From Naegleria gruberi (taxonomy: Eukaryota), in assembly GCA_000004985.1 (NCBI GenBank), contig GG738851.1: DNA of 64,000 nt; one strand, 5' to 3'. A model generated the notes under the pieces. It was not told the DNA's origin and did no database searches. It saw only the letters and a program-made list of their open reading frames with translations. Positions within the stretch are counted from its first letter, which is position 1. Every line of letters begins with the position of its first letter. This document shows, one piece after another, positions 51,893 to 63,742 of the stretch. The position numbers were made by a program, and so were the translations under genes.

Positions 51893-53512
51893 ATGGTCTT
51901 TAAATCAGCTCTTCATGATGAATACGATATCAAGAATCTCTCTGTTCATTCCTCCGTTAAAGTAGTGAATGGATTTTCCGTAGAGAGAAAGGCAACTTTT
52001 GTTTTCTTGTCGAATCTTGGAGTTTGTTTTAATATTGGTCTTCCGATTGATGTTATTGATCGTGATTCCAAGTTTGTTGTCAATGATAAACAAAATCATG
52101 TGATTAATTATTTGTGTTTGACTGATGTATTGAGTGAAAATATTCAAGGATTAATTTCACTTGTGGAAGACAAGGTAGAATTATTTAGCAGAGGAAAGTT
52201 GACAACCAAGTTGAAGATTTTCATTTCGGAAAAGAAGAGCGAGCTCATCACCAATATTTGTAGAGGAATTGTTGATGGAAGAGGGAATATGAGTGATGTT
52301 GTCGAAGTTATTGGAATTAGTGACTTTTTCAAGAGCTTTGAATTACCAAATTCACTCGAATTGAAAGCTTTCCCTGTCAATGATGAAAATACTGAAGTTG
52401 GTTATTCAATTGTGGAAAAGAAGAAGAAATTGAAAGCTGAATTGGCTGAGCAAGTTAAGAATTTAAAGGCAAACGAAAAGAAATTATTCATGCAAGATGA
52501 AAATAATTTTGAAATTACAGAAAGTATTGTTTTTACCTTTGTCAGACAATTGGATATCTCTTCAAAGGTTATGGAGTGTAATAAGGTCATTCTCTCTAAT
52601 TCTAATACTTTGTGTATTGGTTGTTCAGAGTTGCAACACTATTTGGGTTACAATGAAAGTGATAAGACAGTCAAGCAAAATTCAACTCTTGATATTGTCA
52701 ACTTGAACAAATATGTTCTCGACCATTTTAATGGAAAGAATCTCATTTTGACCTACTTGCCAAAGAATCTGTGTCTAGATGGTGATTGTGACATGTATTG
52801 TTTCATTATTCCACGTATTCCAAAAGATCAAAGAAAGAAACTCAAACTCTTATCTCATCGACCAAAACTTGTCGAATCTACACCTAACCCATATAGTCTT
52901 GAGGAAATTAAGGAAATTCACAACAAGAGACAATGGATTGAATACGAAACCAAGTATTTGGATAAGAGTGAATACATGTATGGACAACGTGGATTCTACA
53001 TGGGAGGTGGTTCACAAAAAGCCAAGAAAGTTGAACAGCTCAAGACTCAATATCCTCGTGGTTATATTGTTGCATATGATTTTGAAGGAAATTACATTGA
53101 TAGATCATCTGCTTTTGCTTTCTATGAGGATTCTTATTATACTTTCTTACAAGAACACCCAGAAATTTTGGATAATATTTGTGAGAATTACATTGATGTC
53201 TATGATACAGAACCAAGTAATATTCTAAGTGGATATGATTACAGCATTCAAGAACAAGGAAAGGCAACTCACTTACAAGATATTGCCCTTAGAAGAGCTA
53301 TCAAACGATTGGGAAGAGAACTCAAAGGAAAGGAGCTCGTTCAAGTTAGAGGTTATCGTACTAAATTATTCTGCCTCAATCCTGCCATGGTTGTTTTCCA
53401 TAAGAGAGCAAGTATTATTCAACCAGAAATCACTGAAGAATTCATGTTGGAAGGAAGTATTGAAAGCTTTTGGCAGAGTAATAAGGTCATTCTCACTCCA
53501 CAAGAAAAATAG
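51893..53512 (+). CDS. hypothetical protein (539 aa), lies between two GST paralogues
   Basis: Uninterrupted ORF. No recognisable domain. Internal repeat of 'NKVIL'. Confidence 0.5.
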   Translation: MVFKSALHDEYDIKNLSVHSSVKVVNGFSVERKATFVFLSNLGVCFNIGLPIDVIDRDSKFVVNDKQNHVINYLCLTDVLSENIQGLISLVEDKVELFSRGKLTTKLKIFISEKKSELITNICRGIVDGRGNMSDVVEVIGISDFFKSFELPNSLELKAFPVNDENTEVGYSIVEKKKKLKAELAEQVKNLKANEKKLFMQDENNFEITESIVFTFVRQLDISSKVMECNKVILSNSNTLCIGCSELQHYLGYNESDKTVKQNSTLDIVNLNKYVLDHFNGKNLILTYLPKNLCLDGDCDMYCFIIPRIPKDQRKKLKLLSHRPKLVESTPNPYSLEEIKEIHNKRQWIEYETKYLDKSEYMYGQRGFYMGGGSQKAKKVEQLKTQYPRGYIVAYDFEGNYIDRSSAFAFYEDSYYTFLQEHPEILDNICENYIDVYDTEPSNILSGYDYSIQEQGKATHLQDIALRRAIKRLGRELKGKELVQVRGYRTKLFCLNPAMVVFHKRASIIQPEITEEFMLEGSIESFWQSNKVILTPQEK

Positions 53513-53792: not shown

Positions 53793-54404
53793 ATGACTCT
53801 CGAAATCTTTTACTTTGAAGGACCTGGAAGAGCTGAAATTCTCAAACTCATTGCTCACGTAGTTAATGTCGATTACAAGTTTACCAGCATTCCACGTGAC
53901 CAATGGCCAGCCCAAAAGGAAAATGCAAGATATGGTCAACTTCCATACTTGAAAATTAATGACAAGTGGACACTTTATCAAACCATTGCAATTGCCAGAT
54001 ATCTTGCTCAACAAGGTGATTTGTATCCATCTAACATTGAAGAAGCAACCAAATCTGAAGAATACGTTGCAGCTTTGGATGAACTCTTGATAAAGTTTAT
54101 TAGAGTTTTCTTCGTTGCTTCAGAAGAAAGTAGGGAACAAGAATTAAAGACCTTCCTTGAAGGACCTGTTAAGACTATCCTTGGTGCCTTGGAAAAGATT
54201 TTGGAAGAGAATGGAGATGGTCATCTCATTAAGGGAAAGCTCACTTGGGCTGATTTTATCTTGTTGGATATTGTCTGTTTTTTCCAATTCAAGAATGTTG
54301 ATGTGAGTCACTTGACACATATTTTGAAATCCAAGGAAGTCATTAAAGCCCTTCCAAGATTCCAAGACTACGTCACCAAAGACTACAATTTTAGACAGTT
54401 TTAA
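53793..54404 (+). CDS. sigma-class glutathione S-transferase (second paralogue, intronless)
   Basis: 'MTLEIFYFEGPGRAEILKLI...YGQLPYLK...TIAIARYLA'. Same fold as the gene at 50923. Confidence 0.8.
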   Translation: MTLEIFYFEGPGRAEILKLIAHVVNVDYKFTSIPRDQWPAQKENARYGQLPYLKINDKWTLYQTIAIARYLAQQGDLYPSNIEEATKSEEYVAALDELLIKFIRVFFVASEESREQELKTFLEGPVKTILGALEKILEENGDGHLIKGKLTWADFILLDIVCFFQFKNVDVSHLTHILKSKEVIKALPRFQDYVTKDYNFRQF

Positions 54405-54689: not shown

Positions 54690-55373
54690 GTGGATATTGT
54701 TCCGATTAATCTTTATCGGATTGTCATCATCATGCTGTTAATAGGCTATTATCATCAAAAGAAAAATTGTAAAGAAGTAACTGCTCTCAAACCCTTCATA
54801 GAACCAATATTAAATAGTGATAACATGTTTAGTGGACTTAGGAATAGAGAAGTTAAAGCAGTAATTGATACAATGAAGAATAAGAAGAATCCCTCTATTA
54901 AATATATTATTGATGCAGAATTGGAATTTTTTAAGAATGATGCCCGTAAATCAATACCAAACCTTTATTGGTCAACCATAGGAGACATGTATGACAAGAT
55001 TGTAAAAAAATTGAGGGAGCTTGCAGATAAAGAGGAAAAAGATCCATCTGCCTCTAATACAGTGGTGACCACTCCGGGACGTCAGATTTTTCTTGTCACT
55101 CAAGTAAATGGAGATGACTATGTGGCCGAATTGGATATCAATAAGGACTTTGTTAATCTGCAATCCTTTAATGCTGCAATGACTCCTTTTTTTAGTGGAA
55201 TTGATTTTAGCAAGTATGCTACTTGTTTTGACTATTGGAGATGCAGCCCTCCAATACGTATTGCATTAGTGAATGATAGTGCAGTTCACGCACTTAAAGA
55301 ATATTCAGAGCAGTGTGAGAAGGAAGGTCGATTGGAGGTAGCACTGCAATTTGTTAGCTTACCACAATTGTAA
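54690..55373 (+). CDS. hypothetical protein with N-terminal hydrophobic segment
   Basis: ORF. The annotated start is a GTG. The first ATG is at ~54732 ('MLLIGYYHQKK'). Probable signal or anchor. Confidence 0.4.
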   Translation: MDIVPINLYRIVIIMLLIGYYHQKKNCKEVTALKPFIEPILNSDNMFSGLRNREVKAVIDTMKNKKNPSIKYIIDAELEFFKNDARKSIPNLYWSTIGDMYDKIVKKLRELADKEEKDPSASNTVVTTPGRQIFLVTQVNGDDYVAELDINKDFVNLQSFNAAMTPFFSGIDFSKYATCFDYWRCSPPIRIALVNDSAVHALKEYSEQCEKEGRLEVALQFVSLPQL

Positions 55374-55526: not shown

Positions 55527-58500
55527 ATGTTGCAGAGCTGTGCAAGAAGAGAGAAAAACTGGGTGCTGAGTTTCGCTCTAATTATCCTTTACAACATGCT
55601 GATCACACTTCTCATCCTACAAGAACCAACACATGCAACCATGTGTAGATTTGGATCACCAACATTTAATCAAAGAGATTTGTGTTCATCTGTTACAGAA
55701 GGATCATTCCGTCCTTCATGGTGCAGTGAACATAATCCTTTTGCTGCTGTGCCTCACTTGTTTAGTGACAACAAGTTTCCGAAGTGGTTAAATGTAGAGG
55801 ATGGAGCAATTTGTTCCACATCTCAGCCATACATATTCAGCTATATCAATGGAACACTGATTGATAGACCTCAAAGTGAAGATCCAAACAAATACATCTC
55901 ACCAAGAGATAAATGTAGATATATTTCAAAAATTAACACCATAGAGTTTACTGCCTCAGATGACAAGAATCCACAACGATATGTGGTATTGGGTTTAGTA
56001 TCTGGTCAGATTATTCTTATGAACTTTAACAGTGATGAGACGTACTCAGTGGGAAAGACTGATGATATGACCAATATTAGAACATTGGAAACTTTGACAA
56101 ATGGAACTGATTTATATGTGTCCAGTGTTTCTTTTGGTAATTCTGTTTCGTTATTTTATGGTACATCCAATAAGATAGACAACGTTAGATCATGTGGAAA
56201 TATTTTAGAGGTTGAACCAGACAGCGAATATGCACCTGATGTAAGGTTAATCGTGCATGAGAGAAAAATTTATGCATCAGTTGTTGTTTACAATAGTGTA
56301 GAGCAGAGCTTCTACATTCACTTTTACAGACTCTTTGGTTGTTCCTTTACAAAAGAGTTCCAATACAAGATTAAGGAGAAATGGGATTCAAATCTTGACT
56401 TTAAGGTTTCCTCTCAAGTAGGAGGATTCAAGAATAGTCTTACAACGCAAAGTTACCAAAGTGTTAGAACACTATTACAATTTTACACAACCAAGCATGT
56501 GAAAATTATTGAAATGACAACCAAGAATATTGAAATGGATTTGACTACTGTCGATGATTCTACCTTCTTTGTGGCTAATAGCACTGAAGTGATTACGGGC
56601 GCCACTATTGCTTATGAACAAATTAGAAGAGTTGATTTTAGCCAATCTTCTTGTGTTAAAGTTGTTGCAAATAAGGCTCAAGGAGCCAATTTGCTGGTTA
56701 CTCTTAATAGAAATGGTCAGACCATTTTAAGAGCAAGAAACCTGTTAGAGTTTGCAAATTATGCATTCTTTGAAAACCCTGACAGATCTTACTCTAATCC
56801 AGTAGGTAGAACTGTTCAGTGCAATATTTTGAATGGAACATTCTACGATACTAGAACTAGTAGCTGTGTACCATGTTATGAAACAGAGACAGTAATTACA
56901 GAAATTGGTTCTGGAGAGGAAATTCAAGAAATAAGGTAGGTAGTGGATTAATTTTTTCTTTCTAATGTTTTTGCAAAAAAAGAACGAGATTCCATAATGT
57001 ACCGATGGATTATGCTCAATTCTTTGATATTGACTTGGCTGAAAAGCTTGATATTAACGCACTCTGCTATGATATTATGCAAACACCTGCTCTTGCTAGC
57101 TTGTGTCAACAAAACCTCAATCAATCCAATTGTGCTCTAGAGGTCTTTTCCACTTTTGGTCAAACGTTTCTTCCAAACTTGTTGAGTGATTTTTGGGTTA
57201 ATCAAGTATTCATTTCCAAGACAGGTAAAGAAGTTCTAGTTTATGGCCTCCAACAAGAGATGTGTTCTCTTAATGGATTATATCTTGATACTTACAACAA
57301 GATTAGTTTATTGGGAGAGAGTGATTTTATGGATATTACCAGAAATGCACAACACATGTTCGTAACAATTTCAAGAGAACGTTGGGAGCTTCAATCTATT
57401 AATCGATTCTATAGCATTTGTAAGCAATTAGAAATTAATCCTGATGACCCATTCTTGAAACCATTTGCTGAACAATGTAAAGCCAATACACCAACTCCCG
57501 TCACACTCAATCAATTTGGACAATATACATCTAGCTGCTTTAGTGGAATGTCATGCCCATCACTTAAAGAGGTAGAAATAGTCAAAGTTCCTGATGGATA
57601 TTACACATCAAGACCTAACGCTGTGAAGGAATGTGAAAGTACCTATTTCTGTTACCAAGGCATCAGACAAAAATGTCCTCAAGGGTTTAAATGTCCTTAC
57701 AATAAGATGAACAAACCAATTGCTTGTAAATTTTCAAATCAAAATGGAAGGAGAAGAGATGTCAATTCTTGGGATACACCAAAGGGATCAGATACATGTT
57801 TCTCACCAGGAAACAGTGTTGCTCAACCATGCCTTAACGGAACAATTTGTGTTACTCCTTATTTCCCACCACTTCCTATTTCACCTGGGTTATATCTAGA
57901 AGGAAACAAGATTAGAAAATGTAATGTTGGTGATTATTGTAATTTGGGTCGTTTTGTTGGCTCGAACGAAAATAGTTCAGTATTACAATGCCCTGAAAAC
58001 ACTTATTGTCCTGAGCCAGCGATAATGGAACCATCTCTGTGTATTCCAAATGAAACTATGGCATTGTACTGCCCTTCTGGAACAACAACAAGAATGCCCT
58101 GCAATAGGGGATACTATTGTCCAAGACCTAGTATCCAAACACCTTGTAAATTGACTCAATATTGCGATGTTGGATCCTACGTCCCATCTCCTTGCCCAGC
58201 TGGCTATTACTGTCCATCACCTTCAGAGAAATTGATTTGTCCAAAGGGTTATTATTGTGTTGTGGGTAGTGTGTACCCAACTGGTTGTCCAACCTTCTCA
58301 ATCTGTCCAGAAGGAACCAAGGCCTATGAGGATTATGCATTGGGTGTTTTAATTGATATTTTAATTGCTGCAGCTGTTTTCTTGACTTACAAAATTTACG
58401 TATGGACCAAAGCATGTTGGAATAAATTCCAAGAAAAGAGAAGAAATAAGAAGAAGGAAGAAAGAGCTCAAAAAGTACTTAGCACTGCTCAGTTGGATCC

Positions 58501-60591
58501 TTTAGTTTCATTCTCTCAATATATCCCTAAGTTGACTGTTTCAGAAGTTATGGAAGGTTTATATAAGGAGGTTAGAGTTGAAATTGCATTCGAAAATTTG
58601 TCCCTCGATTTGAAAACCAACAATAAGAGAATTTTACATAATTTAAATGGTAAATTCAGAGCTGGTAGATTGACCTGTATTATGGGCCCTAGTGGTAGTG
58701 GTAAGACCACCTTGTTATCAGCTATTAGTGGTAAGGCACCTTATGCCAATGTGGTTGGTGATATCAAGATTAATGGTGTCAAGAGTTCCATGAAGAAATT
58801 CAAAAACGTTTGTGCATTTGTTCAACAAGAAGATTGTATGCATAGAGAGTTGACTGTTGAAGAATGTATTTATTTCTCTGCCAGAACTAGACTGAATGCA
58901 AAAGTGAGTCAAAAAACAATTGATTCCATTGTAGATGGTGTTATTCAAATTTTGGATTTGAATCACGTAAGACACTCAATTATTGGCGATGAAACAAAGA
59001 GAGGTATTTCAGGTGGTCAAAGAAAGAGAGTCAGTATTGCTATGGAATTGGTTGCTTGTCCATATGTTTTATTCCGTAAGTTTCAATTTTATATATAATG
59101 TTAACACTTCTCATAGTTGATGAACCTACTAGCTCCTTGGATGCCTACAGTAGTTTTGAAGTATCGAAAGCAATGAAGGATATTGCCTCTAGTGGTATAA
59201 CAGTAGTGGCAGTGTTGCATCAACCTAGATTTGAGATATTTGAAATGTTTGATGATGTTGTCTTGCTTGGTAATGGAGGTAGAATTGTTTACATGGGACC
59301 TTCTAAGGATGCTCTGAACTATTTCTCTGAGAAACTTCAATTGGAACCTCCTCCATTTGTTAATCCAAGTGATTTCTTCCTGGATGCTATTTACGATCCA
59401 AGTTTCACTTATCAAAATCAATCTAAGAGAACTGGAAAATATGTTAAATCTATGACCTGCCAAGAAATGTTTGATTTGTGGGAAGAAAATTCCAAGCAGA
59501 TTCAGGCCACTCCAATTGAAGCCAATATTTCATATGAATCTCTTAGAAAAGAGGAGAAATCCAGAGGACAAAATCCACTCATTCATTTGTATATGTGTAT
59601 TAGAAGATCATTCATATTGAGAATCAGAGACATTATGGGATTCTTTGTTGATTGTCTGTTAGTTTATATTGCAGGATTGGCACTTGGTATGATTTTCTTA
59701 AAGGATGCCTATGTTGGACCACTTCCTGAAGATATTATAGATACATGTCCTGCTGCTATTAGAAAGATTTGTGAATATCCATTGAATAATCCAATTATCA
59801 ATGTTGCCAGTACAATCCCTCTTGCCTTGGGATTGTGTGCAGGTATGTCTTCACTTGGAACATTTGGTACAAGACAAGAACAAGTAATTTTCAAGAAGGA
59901 ACAAGCTGCTGGATTATCTGTCATGTCCTATTTCTTGTCGAAAATGTTAGAACAAATTCCAAATATTGTTCTGGGTCCAGTTGTGTTCCTTTCCATTTTC
60001 TTCTCACTCTATTCACCACGAGCTACTTTCTGGGAATATTATTTGGTACTTTTGATGATGCACTTTACAACATTTGGATTAGGAACATTGATAAGTGTTT
60101 GTGTCAAGTTGGATTTGATTCAATTGGCCACAGCTGTCTTGATTCTCGTTTCACAACTTGTTGGAGGTAGTAAGCCAACTATTCCACAAATGAAAGAAAT
60201 TATTCCGCCACTCTTTTGGATCAGTTGCGTCTCCTATGTCAGATATGCACAAGAAGCATTATATTTAATGGAAATCAAGTACTATAAGGATATATTCGAT
60301 ATCAGGTCCTCTTTGGAAGTATTTGATTATGATTTGAGTAATATTGATTTCTGTATTGGAATGATCCCAGTTTTTGGTGTTGCCTTTAGAATTTTAACCT
60401 TGATAGCTCTTTATCAGAAGAGTGATGATTCATTGTGGAGCACTCTTTGGATGTATTTTACTTATTATTCAAATGTTGATAATTTGAAACTAACTGCTAA
60501 ATCATTCTTGAAGAAGTTTAAGAGAACTAAGAAAAAGAATGAAAACGAAGAATTATTACTCAGCACCAACGGTGATACAATAGTGCAATAA
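55527..60591 (+). CDS. Atypical ABCG-type half-transporter with ~1100-aa N-terminal extension (signal/anchor, large extracellular domain, Cys-rich 'CPxGYYCP' repeats, TM helix) followed by NBD and 6-TM domain; 3 exons proposed
   Basis: Proposed join(55527..56935,56983..59075,59117..60591). Intron of 41 nt (59076..59116, GTAAGT..CTCATAG) is strongly supported: it fuses '..VACPYVLF' to 'LDEPTSSLD' (Walker B). Intron of 47 nt (56936..56982, GTAGGT..AAAAAAAG) is inferred from frame compatibility only. NBD motifs 'GPSGSGKTTLL' and 'ISGGQRKRVSIA'. ABC2-type TMD follows. Confidence 0.6.
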
Positions 60592-60829: not shown

Positions 60830-61765
60830 TTAACGCAATTCAATCAAGCCAGACCTATGCTTATCAGACATGTCGTGATTGTAATCTCTGTGCATACATT
60901 CATCGGCACGTACTACTACCACTACGTCTCTCATAGTTGATTCTGGTTTAAGATTCCAATACTTGATTGCAATCTCTGGAGCTTTACAATTTGGAATATC
61001 ACCCTTATCAATAGCTTCTAAGAATTCAGAATAGGCAGCAACAGCTTCTTCCTCCAAATAACCAACAAGACGATGGCAAAATCTTGGATTCAACAAGTAA
61101 GCCATCGTATAGAAGGAAGTAAAACCAACTTGAGCACCAACAACCAACATTCTTTCCAAAAAGGTTGGCTTTGTCATTTCCATCCATGTCAACAAGTGCA
61201 TTCTTTCATTTTCAGCTTCTTCCATCAGTTCTCCAATATGTCCATGATCTCTTCTCATTAATCTCAATGAGTTGAAATGTCTCCAACCTCCTGCAACTAT
61301 ACCCGGAACAGCAGCAACTGTTTCTAATACAACAGCATGGTGAAGATAACGATTTCCAAAGAATCCATGAACGAAAACTCTTAAAAACTTCATAATACCT
61401 AGAGCCAACTTATCAGTCAAGTCAACTGGTGAATAGGAACGTAAAACTTGATACTTTTCCAATTCTTGAGTGTTGGTGTGTGCATTGTCTCCATATGGAC
61501 GGAATTTAGCTTGTGCCAATGGAGTATGATTAGTTTCATAGTGTTTATAGACCATATCCTTAGTAAACATTGGTTTGTTGGATTCTTCTTGAATGGTAGA
61601 CTTCTTGATGGATTGTTGTTGAGTTTCAAATTGACCAAAAGCTGCAGCAGTAGAGTAGGATCTAGTCATATTGAAACAGTTCATTTGATTCTTGACATTC
61701 AAGCTTTTCAAAATGTTGAGAGAAGTTGAACTGCCACGAGCAACACAATTTCTATTCATCATCAT
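60830..61765 (-). CDS. AOX: alternative oxidase, mitochondrial
   Basis: Di-iron motifs 'LETVAAVPG', 'ERMHL', 'LEEEA', 'RADECMHRDYNH'. Presequence-like N-terminus. Single exon. Confidence 0.85.
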   Translation of the reverse strand: MMMNRNCVARGSSTSLNILKSLNVKNQMNCFNMTRSYSTAAAFGQFETQQQSIKKSTIQEESNKPMFTKDMVYKHYETNHTPLAQAKFRPYGDNAHTNTQELEKYQVLRSYSPVDLTDKLALGIMKFLRVFVHGFFGNRYLHHAVVLETVAAVPGIVAGGWRHFNSLRLMRRDHGHIGELMEEAENERMHLLTWMEMTKPTFLERMLVVGAQVGFTSFYTMAYLLNPRFCHRLVGYLEEEAVAAYSEFLEAIDKGDIPNCKAPEIAIKYWNLKPESTMRDVVVVVRADECMHRDYNHDMSDKHRSGLIELR

Positions 61766-62269
61766 TTTCAAATAGTTAATATTAAATAGTTAATATCAGT
61801 AAGTAGTATGAGTGGACAATTATTGTTATTGTTTTTGTTTTGAATTTCATCTATTGCGTCCATCATCTCTGTATTTATATCAACTGTGAAAGTGTACGTT
61901 GCGTCCGCCAATAAAGTGTTCAACCATTACAAAAAAGGAAATTATACGAAGCGGTTGTTCAAATGGTGAGTTGATATGGAGAATCATGTAGTAACAAGTG
62001 GCTATTTAAACCATGATTCTTTGAAAATGGGCGAGTATGTTACAAAAGATTCTCAAATTGATTGAATTAAATATGATTTTCATTGTAATTGGTTCAATTC
62101 AATCATTTTGAGTGGTGTTTTTCAAATTCATGTTTGAGTATGAGGTGATGGGGAAAAGGAATATTGCAATCAATTAATGAATGGTGGGGAAGGGAAAACT
62201 TTACTCAGTATTATGTGCGCCATATTAATGTTTTAACAATGTGTGTGAACAGTGCATGCGGTTATGTTT

Positions 62270-63742
62270 CTAATAGAGGAGTTGAGATATTTTGGCCTCA
62301 ATTTCTCTGCCAACTCTCGTAAACCATGTTAAAGCAAAAAATGGCTCCAAATCTCTATTCTCAATTCCATTAGAAAAGTCCTCATCTGGATAAATGAATA
62401 ATTCCTCAGCATCTCCTGCATGAACGAAAAAGTCAATCTGGGCACACATTATTAATTTAGAGAAGGGAATCATGGCCTTCTTTTCATCTTGTGTGATTGG
62501 TTCTCCTCTTGCATTTTCATAACTTGTCCTATATGCTTGAGTGAGAGTATCATCAAATACTTCAAATGGTTTGTATTCATCCTCAGGCGTAACAATCTTT
62601 GCAATACACCAAAAGAAGAATCCCTTGATGAAATCCAAAATTTGTGGTCCCCAAAAACTATCATCCCAATCCACCACTCCAGCAATGAATTCCTTGTTTT
62701 CATATTTAGAAAATAGAACATTATTCTCATGAATGTCGGCATGTAAGATTGCTTGAGGAAGAGAATCTTCGAGTCTTTGCTGTTCTTCCTTGCTTATTGT
62801 TGATATCAGACTGTTTGCCTCTTCTACAATTTTAATCAATTCATCCAACAAGGTAATTACTTTAGCGTTGTATCTATTGGCTTTTTCAATGTGTTCTTCC
62901 TTGAATGTACAATTGGTCTTGTCAAATATGACAACTCTAGATTTCATAGCTTGAATAGTATTACTCACACTTTCAAGTGCTTCTGCCAAGTATGAAAAGG
63001 TCAACTTTTTCTCACTGATTTTCATTTCTATCATGTCTTGTGGAGTGACCTTTCTATCAAGAATTGAAAAGCCATTTTCCCTGGTCATCTTGTGTAAGCT
63101 ACCCAAAAACACAGCTAATTGATTGACTTGGTCAATTGTCTTCTTTCCCTTATCAACATGGTAGCCACTCACACAACTAAACATGGCACAAAATCTTCCA
63201 TCAACAAAATCAACAATCACTCTATTCATATCAGGAAATTTGGAATAAGAAGATTGAACAAATTCAACCAGCACACATGTTGGTAAAATAACAAACGGAA
63301 CTGGAAATCTATTTTGACAAAGGAAAAACAGTGTAGACAATTCAAATCCAATGAATTCTTTAGATTTGTCACGATCATTGTAAATTCTGAAAATATAGCA
63401 TACTTTTGGAGTGCTGAAAACAGTTCCATTCTTCAATTTACCACTAAACGAAATTGTTATTTTAACACTATCATTTTCAACTCCTCCTGTCAATTCTTCC
63501 GAATCAACACTACAATCCCATAAGGAATTCTCTTCAAGAATATATTGCGAACAAACAGCATCAGGTTGCAGAAGATGAGGATAATGCTGTTTCAAAATTT
63601 CTAATATAATCTCCGCATTCCATCTTTCATTCAGGGCAGAATCCGATGATGAGTTAATATCCTCCGATTCACTACAACTATTGCCATCAAATATATTATT
63701 TGATGAAAGAGAGGGCACAGGAGTCACGTCGTCGAGGAACAT
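62270..63742 (-). CDS. APH/choline-kinase-like phosphotransferase (protein-kinase-like fold)
   Basis: 'ILHADIHENNVLF' (HxDxxxxN catalytic loop) and 'VVDWDDSFWGP' (DxD metal-binding). Confidence 0.6.
   Translation of the reverse strand: MFLDDVTPVPSLSSNNIFDGNSCSESEDINSSSDSALNERWNAEIILEILKQHYPHLLQPDAVCSQYILEENSLWDCSVDSEELTGGVENDSVKITISFSGKLKNGTVFSTPKVCYIFRIYNDRDKSKEFIGFELSTLFFLCQNRFPVPFVILPTCVLVEFVQSSYSKFPDMNRVIVDFVDGRFCAMFSCVSGYHVDKGKKTIDQVNQLAVFLGSLHKMTRENGFSILDRKVTPQDMIEMKISEKKLTFSYLAEALESVSNTIQAMKSRVVIFDKTNCTFKEEHIEKANRYNAKVITLLDELIKIVEEANSLISTISKEEQQRLEDSLPQAILHADIHENNVLFSKYENKEFIAGVVDWDDSFWGPQILDFIKGFFFWCIAKIVTPEDEYKPFEVFDDTLTQAYRTSYENARGEPITQDEKKAMIPFSKLIMCAQIDFFVHAGDAEELFIYPDEDFSNGIENRDLEPFFALTWFTRVGREIEAKISQLLY

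What the first reader, a model, noticed from the sequence alone, without database searches (positions are those of the whole stretch)
55527..60591. ABCG half-transporter fused to a very large N-terminal extracellular/Cys-rich extension
The NBD-TMD half-transporter (Walker A at ~58690, signature 'SGGQRKRV', Walker B split by a 41-nt intron) is preceded in the same ORF by ~700 aa. That segment contains about ten 'C-P-x-G-Y-Y-C-P/ CxxGxYC' repeats and a predicted TM helix ('ALGVLIDILIAAAVFLTYKIYVW'). A further upstream ORF (55527..56939) has a signal/anchor and many N-glycosylation sequons, and it can be joined in-frame by a 47-nt GT..AG intron. ABCG proteins normally start at the NBD. An extracellular Cys-rich 'receptor-like' domain attached to an ABCG pump is rare; it is known in only a few plant/protist ABCG24/WBC30-type proteins.
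Basis: partly seen in the sequence, partly recalled or inferred. Interest (0 to 1): 0.65.

Follow-up and report, generated by a model that had tools for sequence, protein, structure and literature searches.

The report
Giant-ectodomain ABCG half-transporter gene (Naegleria)
This is one intact three-exon amoeba gene for an ABC pump of the little-studied ABCG24/28 type, carrying an unusually large outward-facing head (a beta-propeller on a cysteine-rich stalk); relatives occur in many protists, so it is interesting but not unique.

Summary
Exons 55527-56935, 56983-59075 and 59117-60591 (+) join through GT..AG introns of 47 and 41 nt into a 1658-codon ORF with no internal stop.

A Naegleria lovaniensis homologue reads straight through both intron positions, and a 1666-aa N. 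gruberi paralogue is collinear across both. ORF1 is therefore not a separate gene.

The order of parts is:
- signal peptide
- an extra helix, TM0
- an NBD with all catalytic motifs intact
- a 6-TM ABCG membrane domain

The pump half is closest to proteins that annotators name ABCG24/28/WBC30. In that clade the Cys-rich stalk plus TM0 is the rule: 46 of 75 single-NBD top hits have it, across cnidarians, chytrids, amoebae and discobans.

What is unusual is the propeller and module C. Neither has a Pfam model. Both recur in 1100-2000-aa ABCGs of Naegleria, Willaertia and Acrasis and of unnamed eukaryotes; in Rigifila only module C was seen.

Function is inferred: a dimeric ATP-driven exporter whose head binds something on the exoplasmic side.

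The parts
55527..56935 (+). Exon 1 (aa 1 to the first two bases of codon 470)
   Evidence: ATG-initiated ORF ending at a GT donor at 56936. Homologue HSPs end at 56933/56936.
55527..55637 (+). Predicted signal peptide or signal anchor (aa 1-37; hydrophobic core aa 13-31; possible cleavage after THA)
   Evidence: Kyte-Doolittle peak of 2.58. The paralogue P0001 starts with a classical signal peptide. No dedicated predictor was available.
55638..55901 (+). N-terminal conserved Cys motif region (PSWC..NPF..VP.LFSD), aa 38-125
   Evidence: Conserved in Naegleria, Willaertia and Acrasis and in unnamed homologues. AF2 confidence is low here.
55902..56933 (+). Beta-propeller head (aa ~126-469): five complete 4-stranded blades plus a partial sixth
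56936..56982 (+). Intron 1, 47 nt, GTAGGT...AAAG
   Evidence: Needed to join the frames. The position is read through in N. lovaniensis and is collinear in P0001.
56983..59075 (+). Exon 2 (aa 470-1167)
56984..57193 (+). Helical, Cys-containing insert (aa 471-540)
   Evidence: AF2 helices with modest pLDDT. 54% identity to the paralogue.
57194..57553 (+). Module C (aa 541-660): a blade-like beta-sheet plus helices. This is the most conserved ectodomain segment.
   Evidence: 87% identity to paralogue P0001, against 89% for the NBD. It is the core of the 143 HMM hits. AF2 pLDDT is about 90. No Pfam model in any of the 32 members scanned.
57554..58333 (+). Cys-rich stalk (aa 661-920): ten C-x5-C units, 25 Cys
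58334..58405 (+). TM0, the extra transmembrane helix (aa ~921-944), followed by a K/R-rich cytosolic flank
   Evidence: Hydropathy 2.11. It lies about 95 aa before Walker A, as in the rest of the clade.
58589..59394 (+). Nucleotide-binding domain (aa 1006-1260; contains intron 2). Walker A 58685-58708, Q-loop 58817-58834, signature 59006-59032, Walker B 59066-59142, H-loop 59212-59229.
   Evidence: Pfam ABC_tran E 1.1e-25. Motif coordinates. PDB matches to Cdr1/Pdr5, ABCG2, ABCG25 and ABCG1.
59076..59116 (+). Intron 2, 41 nt, GTAAGT...ATAG, inside the Walker B codon for Leu1167
   Evidence: Splicing restores VLFLDEPTSSLD, identical to P0001. N. lovaniensis is continuous here.
59117..60591 (+). 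Exon 3 (aa 1167-1658 plus the TAA stop)
59620..60414 (+). ABCG-type membrane domain with six hydrophobic segments (aa 1344-1362, 1394-1412, 1448-1466, 1477-1495, 1492-1510, 1581-1599)
   Evidence: Pfam ABC2_membrane_7 E 3.8e-39 and ABC2_membrane E 2.5e-14. Hydropathy.
60415..60588 (+). Basic cytosolic C-terminal tail containing ENEELL (60541-60558)
   Evidence: The motif assignment rests only on a pattern match.

Best explanation
SHOWN
- 55527-60591 is one intact three-exon gene of a Naegleria gruberi-like amoeboflagellate.
- It encodes a 1658-aa protein with seven predicted transmembrane helices.
- The order of parts is: signal peptide, ~880-aa exoplasmic domain, extra helix TM0, about 95 cytosolic residues, a catalytically complete NBD, and a six-helix ABCG membrane domain.
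- The exoplasmic domain runs: conserved Cys motif, beta-propeller, helical insert, module C, stalk of ten C-x5-C units.
- The NBD has Walker A, Q-loop, signature, Walker B with the catalytic Glu, and the H-loop His.

INFERRED FROM ESTABLISHED KNOWLEDGE OF ABCG HALF-TRANSPORTERS
- It must pair with a second half, either itself or a paralogue.
- The dimer would use ATP binding and hydrolysis at the NBD dimer to move a substrate from the cytosolic leaflet or cytosol to the exoplasmic side.

INFERRED FROM ANATOMY
- TM0 places the propeller-on-stalk head on the same exoplasmic face as the transporter's exit gate.
- The head is therefore most likely a binding platform, for an acceptor of the exported substrate, a ligand or a partner protein, on the cell surface or in the lumen of a secretory or endolysosomal vesicle.

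CLASSIFICATION
It belongs to the eukaryote-wide clade whose members are named after Arabidopsis ABCG24/ABCG28/WBC30. It represents that clade's giant-ectodomain subgroup.
For: Gene model:
- The spliced CDS has no internal stop.
- N. lovaniensis genomic DNA has uninterrupted ORFs across both intron positions. Single tblastn HSPs cover aa 14-805 and aa 996-1603.
- Paralogue P0001 aligns without gaps at both junctions.
- Four homologues' HSPs break exactly at the exon edges.

Topology:
- N-terminal hydrophobic core, TM0, six TMD helices, and a K/R-rich flank after TM0.

Family:
- Pfam ABC_tran, ABC2_membrane_7 and ABC2_membrane hits cover only aa ~1013-1600.
- The best solved structures are all ABCG/PDR, at up to 226 bits.
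- Unsolved proteins named ABCG24, ABCG28 or WBC30 score 330-600 bits.
- 46 of 75 single-NBD top hits have TM0 with at least 8 Cys in the 110 aa before it.

Ectodomain:
- 143 HMM hits. These include 1486-2012-aa ABCG fusions from N. fowleri, Willaertia magna, Acrasis kona and N. lovaniensis, plus a Rigifila ramosa transcript.
- AF2 models with pLDDT 82 and 84.
- Fold matches for the propeller and the Cys-rich stalk.

Constraint:
- Identity to the paralogue is 87% in module C, 72% in the stalk and 65% in the propeller, against 36-49% in the linkers.
Against: - There is no transcript, proteomic or localisation evidence for this locus.
- The signal peptide and topology rest on hydropathy and the positive-inside rule only.
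- The two ectodomain halves were modelled separately, so how module C packs against the propeller is unknown.
- The substrate, the dimer partner and the membrane of residence are not addressed by any data here.
- No Arabidopsis ABCG24/28 sequence could be compared directly.
- Fold matches for the head are generic (Foldseek TM 0.3-0.4) and give no clue to a ligand.
Confidence: 0.8

Rival explanations
1. Two genes. 55527-56939 would encode a secreted beta-propeller protein. A separate ABCG gene would start downstream, at Met 57005 or nearer the NBD.
For: ORF1 ends at an in-frame TAG. Prokaryote-style gene callers on metagenome contigs report the ORFs separately (P0123, P0003). The N. lovaniensis annotation lists two adjacent genes.
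Against: - The N. lovaniensis split lies elsewhere, inside the stalk at a deletion, while its DNA is one ORF across the window's intron-1 position.
- The 47-nt gap has GT..AG ends and restores the frame exactly.
- The junction residues EIR|TRFH align to ELSSRFH and EIRSRYY in homologues.
- The same collinear architecture is found in more than 15 long proteins, including a Rigifila transcript.
- A protein starting at Met 57005 would have no signal peptide for its Cys-rich exoplasmic region.
Confidence: 0.04
2. A receptor-like or regulatory ABCG rather than a simple pump. Ligand binding to the propeller head would gate ATPase or transport. Alternatively the protein would work only as a heterodimer with a paralogue whose NBD is catalytically dead, with one consensus and one degenerate ATP site as in ABCG5/G8.
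For: - Module C is as conserved as the NBD.
- Paralogues P0221 (N. lovaniensis) and P0233 (W. magna) keep the giant ectodomain and TM0 but have degenerate Walker A, signature and Walker B motifs.
Against: - The window's own NBD is fully canonical, so a homodimer could be active.
- No degenerate paralogue has been shown in the window's own genome.
- No ligand, no signalling domain and no experimental data exist.
- The fold matches are generic.
Confidence: 0.2
3. A decaying or non-functional duplicate of the annotated N. gruberi paralogue P0001.
For: No exact or near-exact annotated protein for this locus was returned by any search. The N. lovaniensis homologue appears disrupted.
Against: The 1658 codons have no stop or frameshift once the two canonical introns are removed, and all catalytic motifs and all stalk cysteines are kept. 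Divergence from P0001 is concentrated in the linkers and spares the domains, which is the pattern of purifying selection.
Confidence: 0.03

Closest known systems
Arabidopsis ABCG28 / ABCG24 / WBC30 ('long' half-size ABCGs) and their named relatives in cnidarians, chytrids, Andalucia and Acrasis
   Same: NBD-then-TMD half-transporter. The best-scoring named proteins carry these names. They share an N-terminal extension made of a signal peptide, a Cys-rich juxtamembrane module (C-P-x-G-Y-Y-C-P units) and an extra TM helix about 90-120 aa before Walker A. ABCG28 is reported to act in polyamine-containing secretory vesicles of pollen tubes (PMC7419745, citing Do et al. 2019).
   Different: Typical clade members have ectodomains of 65-280 aa, which is the stalk only. 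This gene has about 880 aa, with a beta-propeller and module C on top. No direct alignment to the Arabidopsis proteins was possible here, and function in an amoeba is unknown.
Human ABCG2, ABCG1 and ABCG5/G8, plant ABCG25/ABCG16, and yeast Pdr5/Cdr1 (solved ABCG/PDR structures)
   Same: Same NBD and TMD families and the same motif set, with E 4e-66 to 1e-39 over aa ~996-1552. The mechanism is presumably the same dimeric type-V/ABCG exporter mechanism.
   Different: These proteins start at or near the NBD and have no signal peptide, ectodomain or TM0. Their bit scores are about half those of ABCG24/28-named proteins.
Elapor1, Eph-receptor, CaSR and TNFR-type cysteine-rich domains, and the Chlamydomonas mastigoneme protein Mst1
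   Different: No Pfam model for any of these families (for example Ephrin_rec_like or TNFR_c6) matches the window protein or any of the 32 homologues scanned. The similarity may reflect a shared repeat type rather than membership.
Extracellular beta-propeller plus Cys-rich stalk plus single TM helix receptors (plexin/Met Sema-PSI, integrin alpha, LGI1 EPTP)
   Same: The overall exoplasmic layout is alike, and these proteins appear among the fold hits.
   Different: Matches are no better than to cytosolic WD40 proteins, sequence identity is 6-12%, and there is no Sema, FG-GAP or EPTP HMM hit.
ABCA1/ABCA4-type exporters with large extracellular domains
   Same: An ABC exporter that carries a large exoplasmic domain above the membrane domain. 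This is an analogy for how a head could receive exported lipid.
   Different: Different subfamily, different topology (TMD before NBD, with the ECDs inserted between TM helices) and unrelated folds. This rests on my own knowledge and was not tested.

Membership tests
ABCG subfamily (reverse-topology half-transporter) | A single NBD lying N-terminal to a single 6-TM ABC-2-type membrane domain | tested here: met
   ABC_tran at aa 1021-1173 precedes ABC2_membrane_7 and ABC2_membrane at aa 1325-1600. Six hydrophobic segments are present.
ABCG subfamily (reverse-topology half-transporter) | Intact Walker A, Q-loop, ABC signature, Walker B with catalytic Glu, and H-loop | tested here: met
   GPSGSGKT, FVQQED, ISGGQRKRV, VLFLDEPTSSLD and VLHQPR are all present after splicing.
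ABCG subfamily (reverse-topology half-transporter) | Closest solved structures are ABCG/PDR proteins rather than other ABC subfamilies | tested here: met
   Cdr1/Pdr5, ABCG2, ABCG25, ABCG1, ABCG16 and ABCG5/8 score E 4e-66 to 1e-39. ABCB proteins score about 1e-28, over the NBD only.
ABCG24/ABCG28/WBC30-type long half-transporters | The NBD-TMD is most similar to proteins of this clade | tested here: met
   Best named hits are Acrasis 'ABCG24' (601 bits), cnidarian 'ABCG 28-like' and 'ABCG 24-like', Nematostella 'WBC30' and Andalucia 'ABCG28' and 'ABCG24'. The names are the annotators' and are similarity-derived.
ABCG24/ABCG28/WBC30-type long half-transporters | N-terminal extension with a signal peptide, a Cys-rich exoplasmic module and one extra TM helix shortly before the NBD | tested here: met
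   In the window TM0 lies at aa 921-944, with 12 Cys in the 110 aa before it. The same pattern is found in 46 of 75 single-NBD top hits, and the Cys columns are invariant.
ABCG24/ABCG28/WBC30-type long half-transporters | Monophyly with the Arabidopsis type members in a phylogeny | not tested
   No Arabidopsis sequence was among the retrieved hits and none could be fetched. The AFDB library was unavailable.
ABCG24/ABCG28/WBC30-type long half-transporters | Secretory-vesicle localisation and polyamine-related function, as reported for AtABCG28 | not testable with these tools
   Only literature is available (PMC7419745). There are no data for Naegleria.
Beta-propeller fold (generic) | Repeated 4-stranded antiparallel blades arranged radially | tested here: met
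Specific propeller families (WD40, FG-GAP/integrin alpha, Sema, EPTP, Vps10) | A match to the family HMM, or a clearly best fold match | tested here: not met
   No Pfam hit at E up to 1. Fold scores are flat across unrelated propeller families.
Ephrin-receptor-like / GCC2_GCC3 / TNFR cysteine-rich repeats | A match to the family HMM | tested here: not met
   No Pfam family matched the window stalk or any of the 32 homologues. The only hit was EpCAM_N at E 0.077 in one member.
Ephrin-receptor-like / GCC2_GCC3 / TNFR cysteine-rich repeats | Structural similarity of the disulfide-ladder repeat | tested here: inconclusive

The most novel reading that the evidence does not exclude
Giant-ectodomain ABCGs would form an undescribed, ancient class of receptor-like ABC transporters found in Heterolobosea, CRuMs and other protists. 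In them a beta-propeller plus module C head, which has no Pfam family, would couple recognition of an external or lumenal ligand or acceptor to transport. They might work as asymmetric heterodimers with the paralogues that have lost all ATP-site motifs.
Probability: 0.2. Interest if true: 0.6.

Novelty: new variant of a known kind. Interest (0 to 1): 0.42.

Why it matters
ABCG transporters are usually described as starting at the NBD. The ABCG24/28/WBC30 branch breaks that rule, has no solved structure, and has essentially one characterised member.

This gene shows how far the branch can go: an exoplasmic head of about 880 aa with a propeller and a conserved module that is absent from domain databases. 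The work also shows that the Cys-rich stalk plus TM0 is an ancient trait of the clade across eukaryotes.

If the head binds a ligand or an acceptor, these proteins would be a tractable model for coupling between an extracellular domain and an ABCG pump. In Naegleria, where N. fowleri has homologues, they are large surface or vesicle proteins of possible relevance to feeding, adhesion or drug efflux.

For annotation, the case shows that short introns and prokaryote-style gene calling fragment such genes.

Tried and rejected
- **Third word-indexed homologue search.** Run with a 24-sequence ectodomain alignment, it returned only 2 proteins. The exhaustive HMM search supplied the homologues instead.
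- **AFDB50 fold search.** The library was not installed, so no structural comparison with plant ABCG24/28 models was possible.
- **Genomic context.** Look-ups for P0001 and for the N. gruberi GST were not on record.
- **Literature.** Searches for ABCG24, ABCG28, WBC30, N-terminal extension and Naegleria ABCG found no description of this architecture. The ABCG28 PNAS paper is not held.
- **Pfam on the ectodomain.** Nothing matched the window protein or any of the 32 homologues scanned.
- **N-glycosylation sequons as evidence of exoplasmic location.** Rejected, because they are not above shuffle expectation.
- **P0001 as the orthologue in another species.** Rejected. A neighbouring gene's product is 100% identical to an N. 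gruberi protein on a different scaffold from P0001, so P0001 is a paralogue.
- **PF19055 as a marker specific to the ABCG24 clade.** Rejected. It also hits two-NBD fungal proteins.
- **Other copies in the window.** None was found.
Full report
**Context.** The window is AT-rich (33-37% GC) and densely packed with long ORFs interrupted by very short gaps. The product of the GST-like gene 1.1 kb upstream of the finding (53793-54404) is 100% identical over 203 aa to Naegleria gruberi XP_002681096.1. The window therefore comes from N. gruberi or a near-identical strain. Neighbouring genes encode an alternative oxidase, an APH-family kinase and two proteins without Pfam matches.

**Observation.** Intron 1 is 56936-56982, GTAGGT...AAAG, 47 nt. 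Intron 2 is 59076-59116, GTAAGT...ATAG, 41 nt. Removing both gives a 4977-nt CDS of 1658 aa with no internal stop. The second splice rebuilds the Walker B motif VLF|LDEPTSSLD.
- The stalk holds exactly ten C-x5-C units.
- About 530 aa of ORF2, not 700, precede the NBD.
- N-glycosylation sequons are not enriched: 8 against 9.5 +/- 2.8 in shuffles.

**Is it one gene?** Four lines of comparative evidence say yes.
- In the N. lovaniensis genome (locus L002) the homologous region is a single uninterrupted ORF across the window's intron-1 position (...NVLEIRSRYYDVP...), and another across the intron-2 position (...ACPYVLFLDEPTSS...). Single tblastn HSPs cover window aa 14-805 and aa 996-1603.
- A 1666-aa N. 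gruberi protein (P0001, 'predicted protein') aligns without gaps at both junctions. It sits on a different scaffold from the GST neighbour (508 kb against 694 kb), so it is a paralogue.
- HSPs of four homologues against the window end and restart exactly at the exon edges.
- A transcriptome-derived Rigifila ramosa protein (P0192) carries ectodomain and ABC motifs in one ORF.

The separate ORF calls on metagenome contigs (P0003, P0123) reflect prokaryote-style gene calling.

**Pump half.** Pfam matches only aa ~1013-1600: ABC_tran, ABC2_membrane_7 and ABC2_membrane.
- All the best solved structures are ABCG/PDR proteins: Cdr1/Pdr5, ABCG2, AtABCG25, ABCG1, AtABCG16 and ABCG5/8.
- Unsolved proteins score much higher. 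Their source names are ABCG24 (Acrasis), ABCG 28-like and 24-like (octocorals), WBC30 (Nematostella) and ABCG28/24 (Andalucia).
- The NBD motifs are all canonical, so the subunit should be catalytically competent.

**The extension is a trait of the clade.** Of the 120 best hits to the pump half, 75 have one NBD. Of those, 46 have a hydrophobic helix 90-120 aa before Walker A, preceded by at least 8 (usually 11-15) cysteines in 110 residues. Alignment shows the same C-P-x-G-Y-Y-C-P ladder in cnidarians, chytrids, glomeromycetes, amoebozoans and discobans, and the Cys columns are invariant. 'ABCG with a Cys-rich ectodomain' is therefore the normal state of a widespread but little-studied ABCG branch. 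Their ectodomains are mostly 65-280 aa. The window's ectodomain, about 880 aa after the signal peptide, is the outlier.

**The extra ~600 aa.** An HMM of the pre-stalk region, searched against 1.84 billion representatives, found 143 proteins, 21 of them below 1e-30.
- The long hits are ABCG fusions of 1486-2012 aa.
- Named members come from N. fowleri (CAG4708565.1, FDP41_012002), Willaertia magna, Acrasis kona, N. lovaniensis and Rigifila ramosa. Many others are unnamed, including a Tara Oceans cluster and a protein from a GC-rich organism.
- Rigifila matched only module C and the stalk; its first ~390 aa did not match the propeller region.
- AF2 on a 29-sequence alignment folds aa ~126-469 into a beta-propeller: pLDDT 81.8, pTM 0.81, five complete blades and a partial sixth.
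- The second model (aa 471-922, pLDDT 84.1) shows a helical insert, then module C, then an extended ladder of small disulfide hairpins.
- No Pfam model matches any part of the ectodomain, in the window protein or in the 32 homologues of its stalk half that were scanned.

**Constraint.** Identity to the paralogue by region:

| Region | Identity to P0001 |
|---|---|
| NBD | 89% |
| Module C | 87% |
| TMD | 82% |
| TM0 | 74% |
| Stalk | 72% |
| Propeller | 65% |
| Linkers and tail | 36-49% |

Domains are conserved and linkers are free, which is the signature of a functional protein.

**Topology and mechanism.**
- Shown by sequence: an N-terminal hydrophobic core, TM0 followed by WTKACWNKFQEKRRNKKKEERAQK, six TMD helices and a basic C-terminal tail.
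- Inferred from the positive-inside rule and ABCG topology: the 880-aa head is exoplasmic, and the NBD and tail are cytosolic.
- Inferred from established ABCG mechanism: the half-transporter dimerises and exports a substrate using ATP.
- Inferred from anatomy: the head sits beside the exit gate and acts as a binding platform.
- The only functional lead for the clade is Arabidopsis ABCG28, which is reported to be needed for polyamine-containing secretory vesicles at pollen-tube tips (PMC7419745).
- Whether the Naegleria protein is on the surface or in vesicles is unknown.

**Side observations.**
- Paralogues in N. lovaniensis and W. magna keep the whole architecture but have lost the Walker A, signature and Walker B consensus. 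This raises the possibility of asymmetric heterodimers.
- The closest N. lovaniensis homologue lacks window aa 854-995 (the last stalk units, TM0 and the linker) with a frame change, and is annotated as two genes.

**Verdict.** It is not a rarity at the level of 'ABCG with a Cys-rich ectodomain'. It is a clear example of a giant-ectodomain variant, propeller plus module C, that I could not find described in the searchable literature or in Pfam. Homologues are already in sequence databases as hypothetical proteins, so I rate it a new variant of a known kind, of moderate interest.

Noticed in passing
window 53793-54404 (+): The product of this GST-like gene is 100% identical over 203 aa to N. 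gruberi XP_002681096.1 / EFC48352.1. This identifies the window as N. gruberi or a near-identical strain and makes the 1666-aa N. gruberi protein P0001 a paralogue (different scaffold).
   Followed up: partly
window 55527-60591: No exact or near-exact annotated protein for this locus was returned by any search. Only two ORF-sized pieces from ENA metagenome assemblies matched: P0003 (assembly ERZ929261) and P0123 (assembly not looked up), differing by 1-2 aa. The gene may be missing or fragmented in the reference N. gruberi proteome. One search also failed to list P0001, so absence is not proven.
   Followed up: partly
L002 6001-10829 (N. lovaniensis PYSW02000022.1): The closest N. lovaniensis homologue is annotated as two adjacent genes, C9374_004976 and C9374_004977, 58 nt apart. 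Its DNA lacks the equivalent of window aa 854-995 (the last Cys units, TM0 and the linker) and changes frame there. The second model starts inside Walker A. This is either a pseudogene or an assembly error.
   Followed up: partly
P0221 (N. lovaniensis C9374_011496, 1721 aa) and P0233 (Willaertia magna ABK040_002358, 1785 aa): These paralogues have the same giant ectodomain and TM0 but degenerate ATP-site motifs: Walker A GVNDEASL, signature LDEDLRV and Walker B LFIENPF. They are possible non-catalytic heterodimer partners.
   Followed up: partly
window 60541-60558 (aa 1643-1648): The C-terminal tail contains ENEELL, and the paralogue P0001 ends in EKEGLL. Both fit the acidic dileucine sorting pattern [DE]xxxL[LI]. 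The pattern is absent from the other homologues inspected, so it may be chance.
   Followed up: no
window 60830-61771 (-), 62270-63742 (-), 51893-53512 (+), 54690-55373 (+): Flanking genes are an alternative oxidase (Pfam AOX, E 6e-80), an APH/EcKL-family phosphotransferase, and two ORFs of 539 and 227 aa with no Pfam match.
   Followed up: partly
P0192 (Rigifila ramosa transcriptome, 1575 aa); P0172 cluster (Tara Oceans, ~1310 aa); P0152 (1630 aa, from a GC-rich organism): Module C, the stalk, TM0 and the ABCG half occur together outside Heterolobosea. P0152 also has the propeller region. The giant-ectodomain subgroup is therefore phylogenetically broad, although most members are unnamed.
   Followed up: partly
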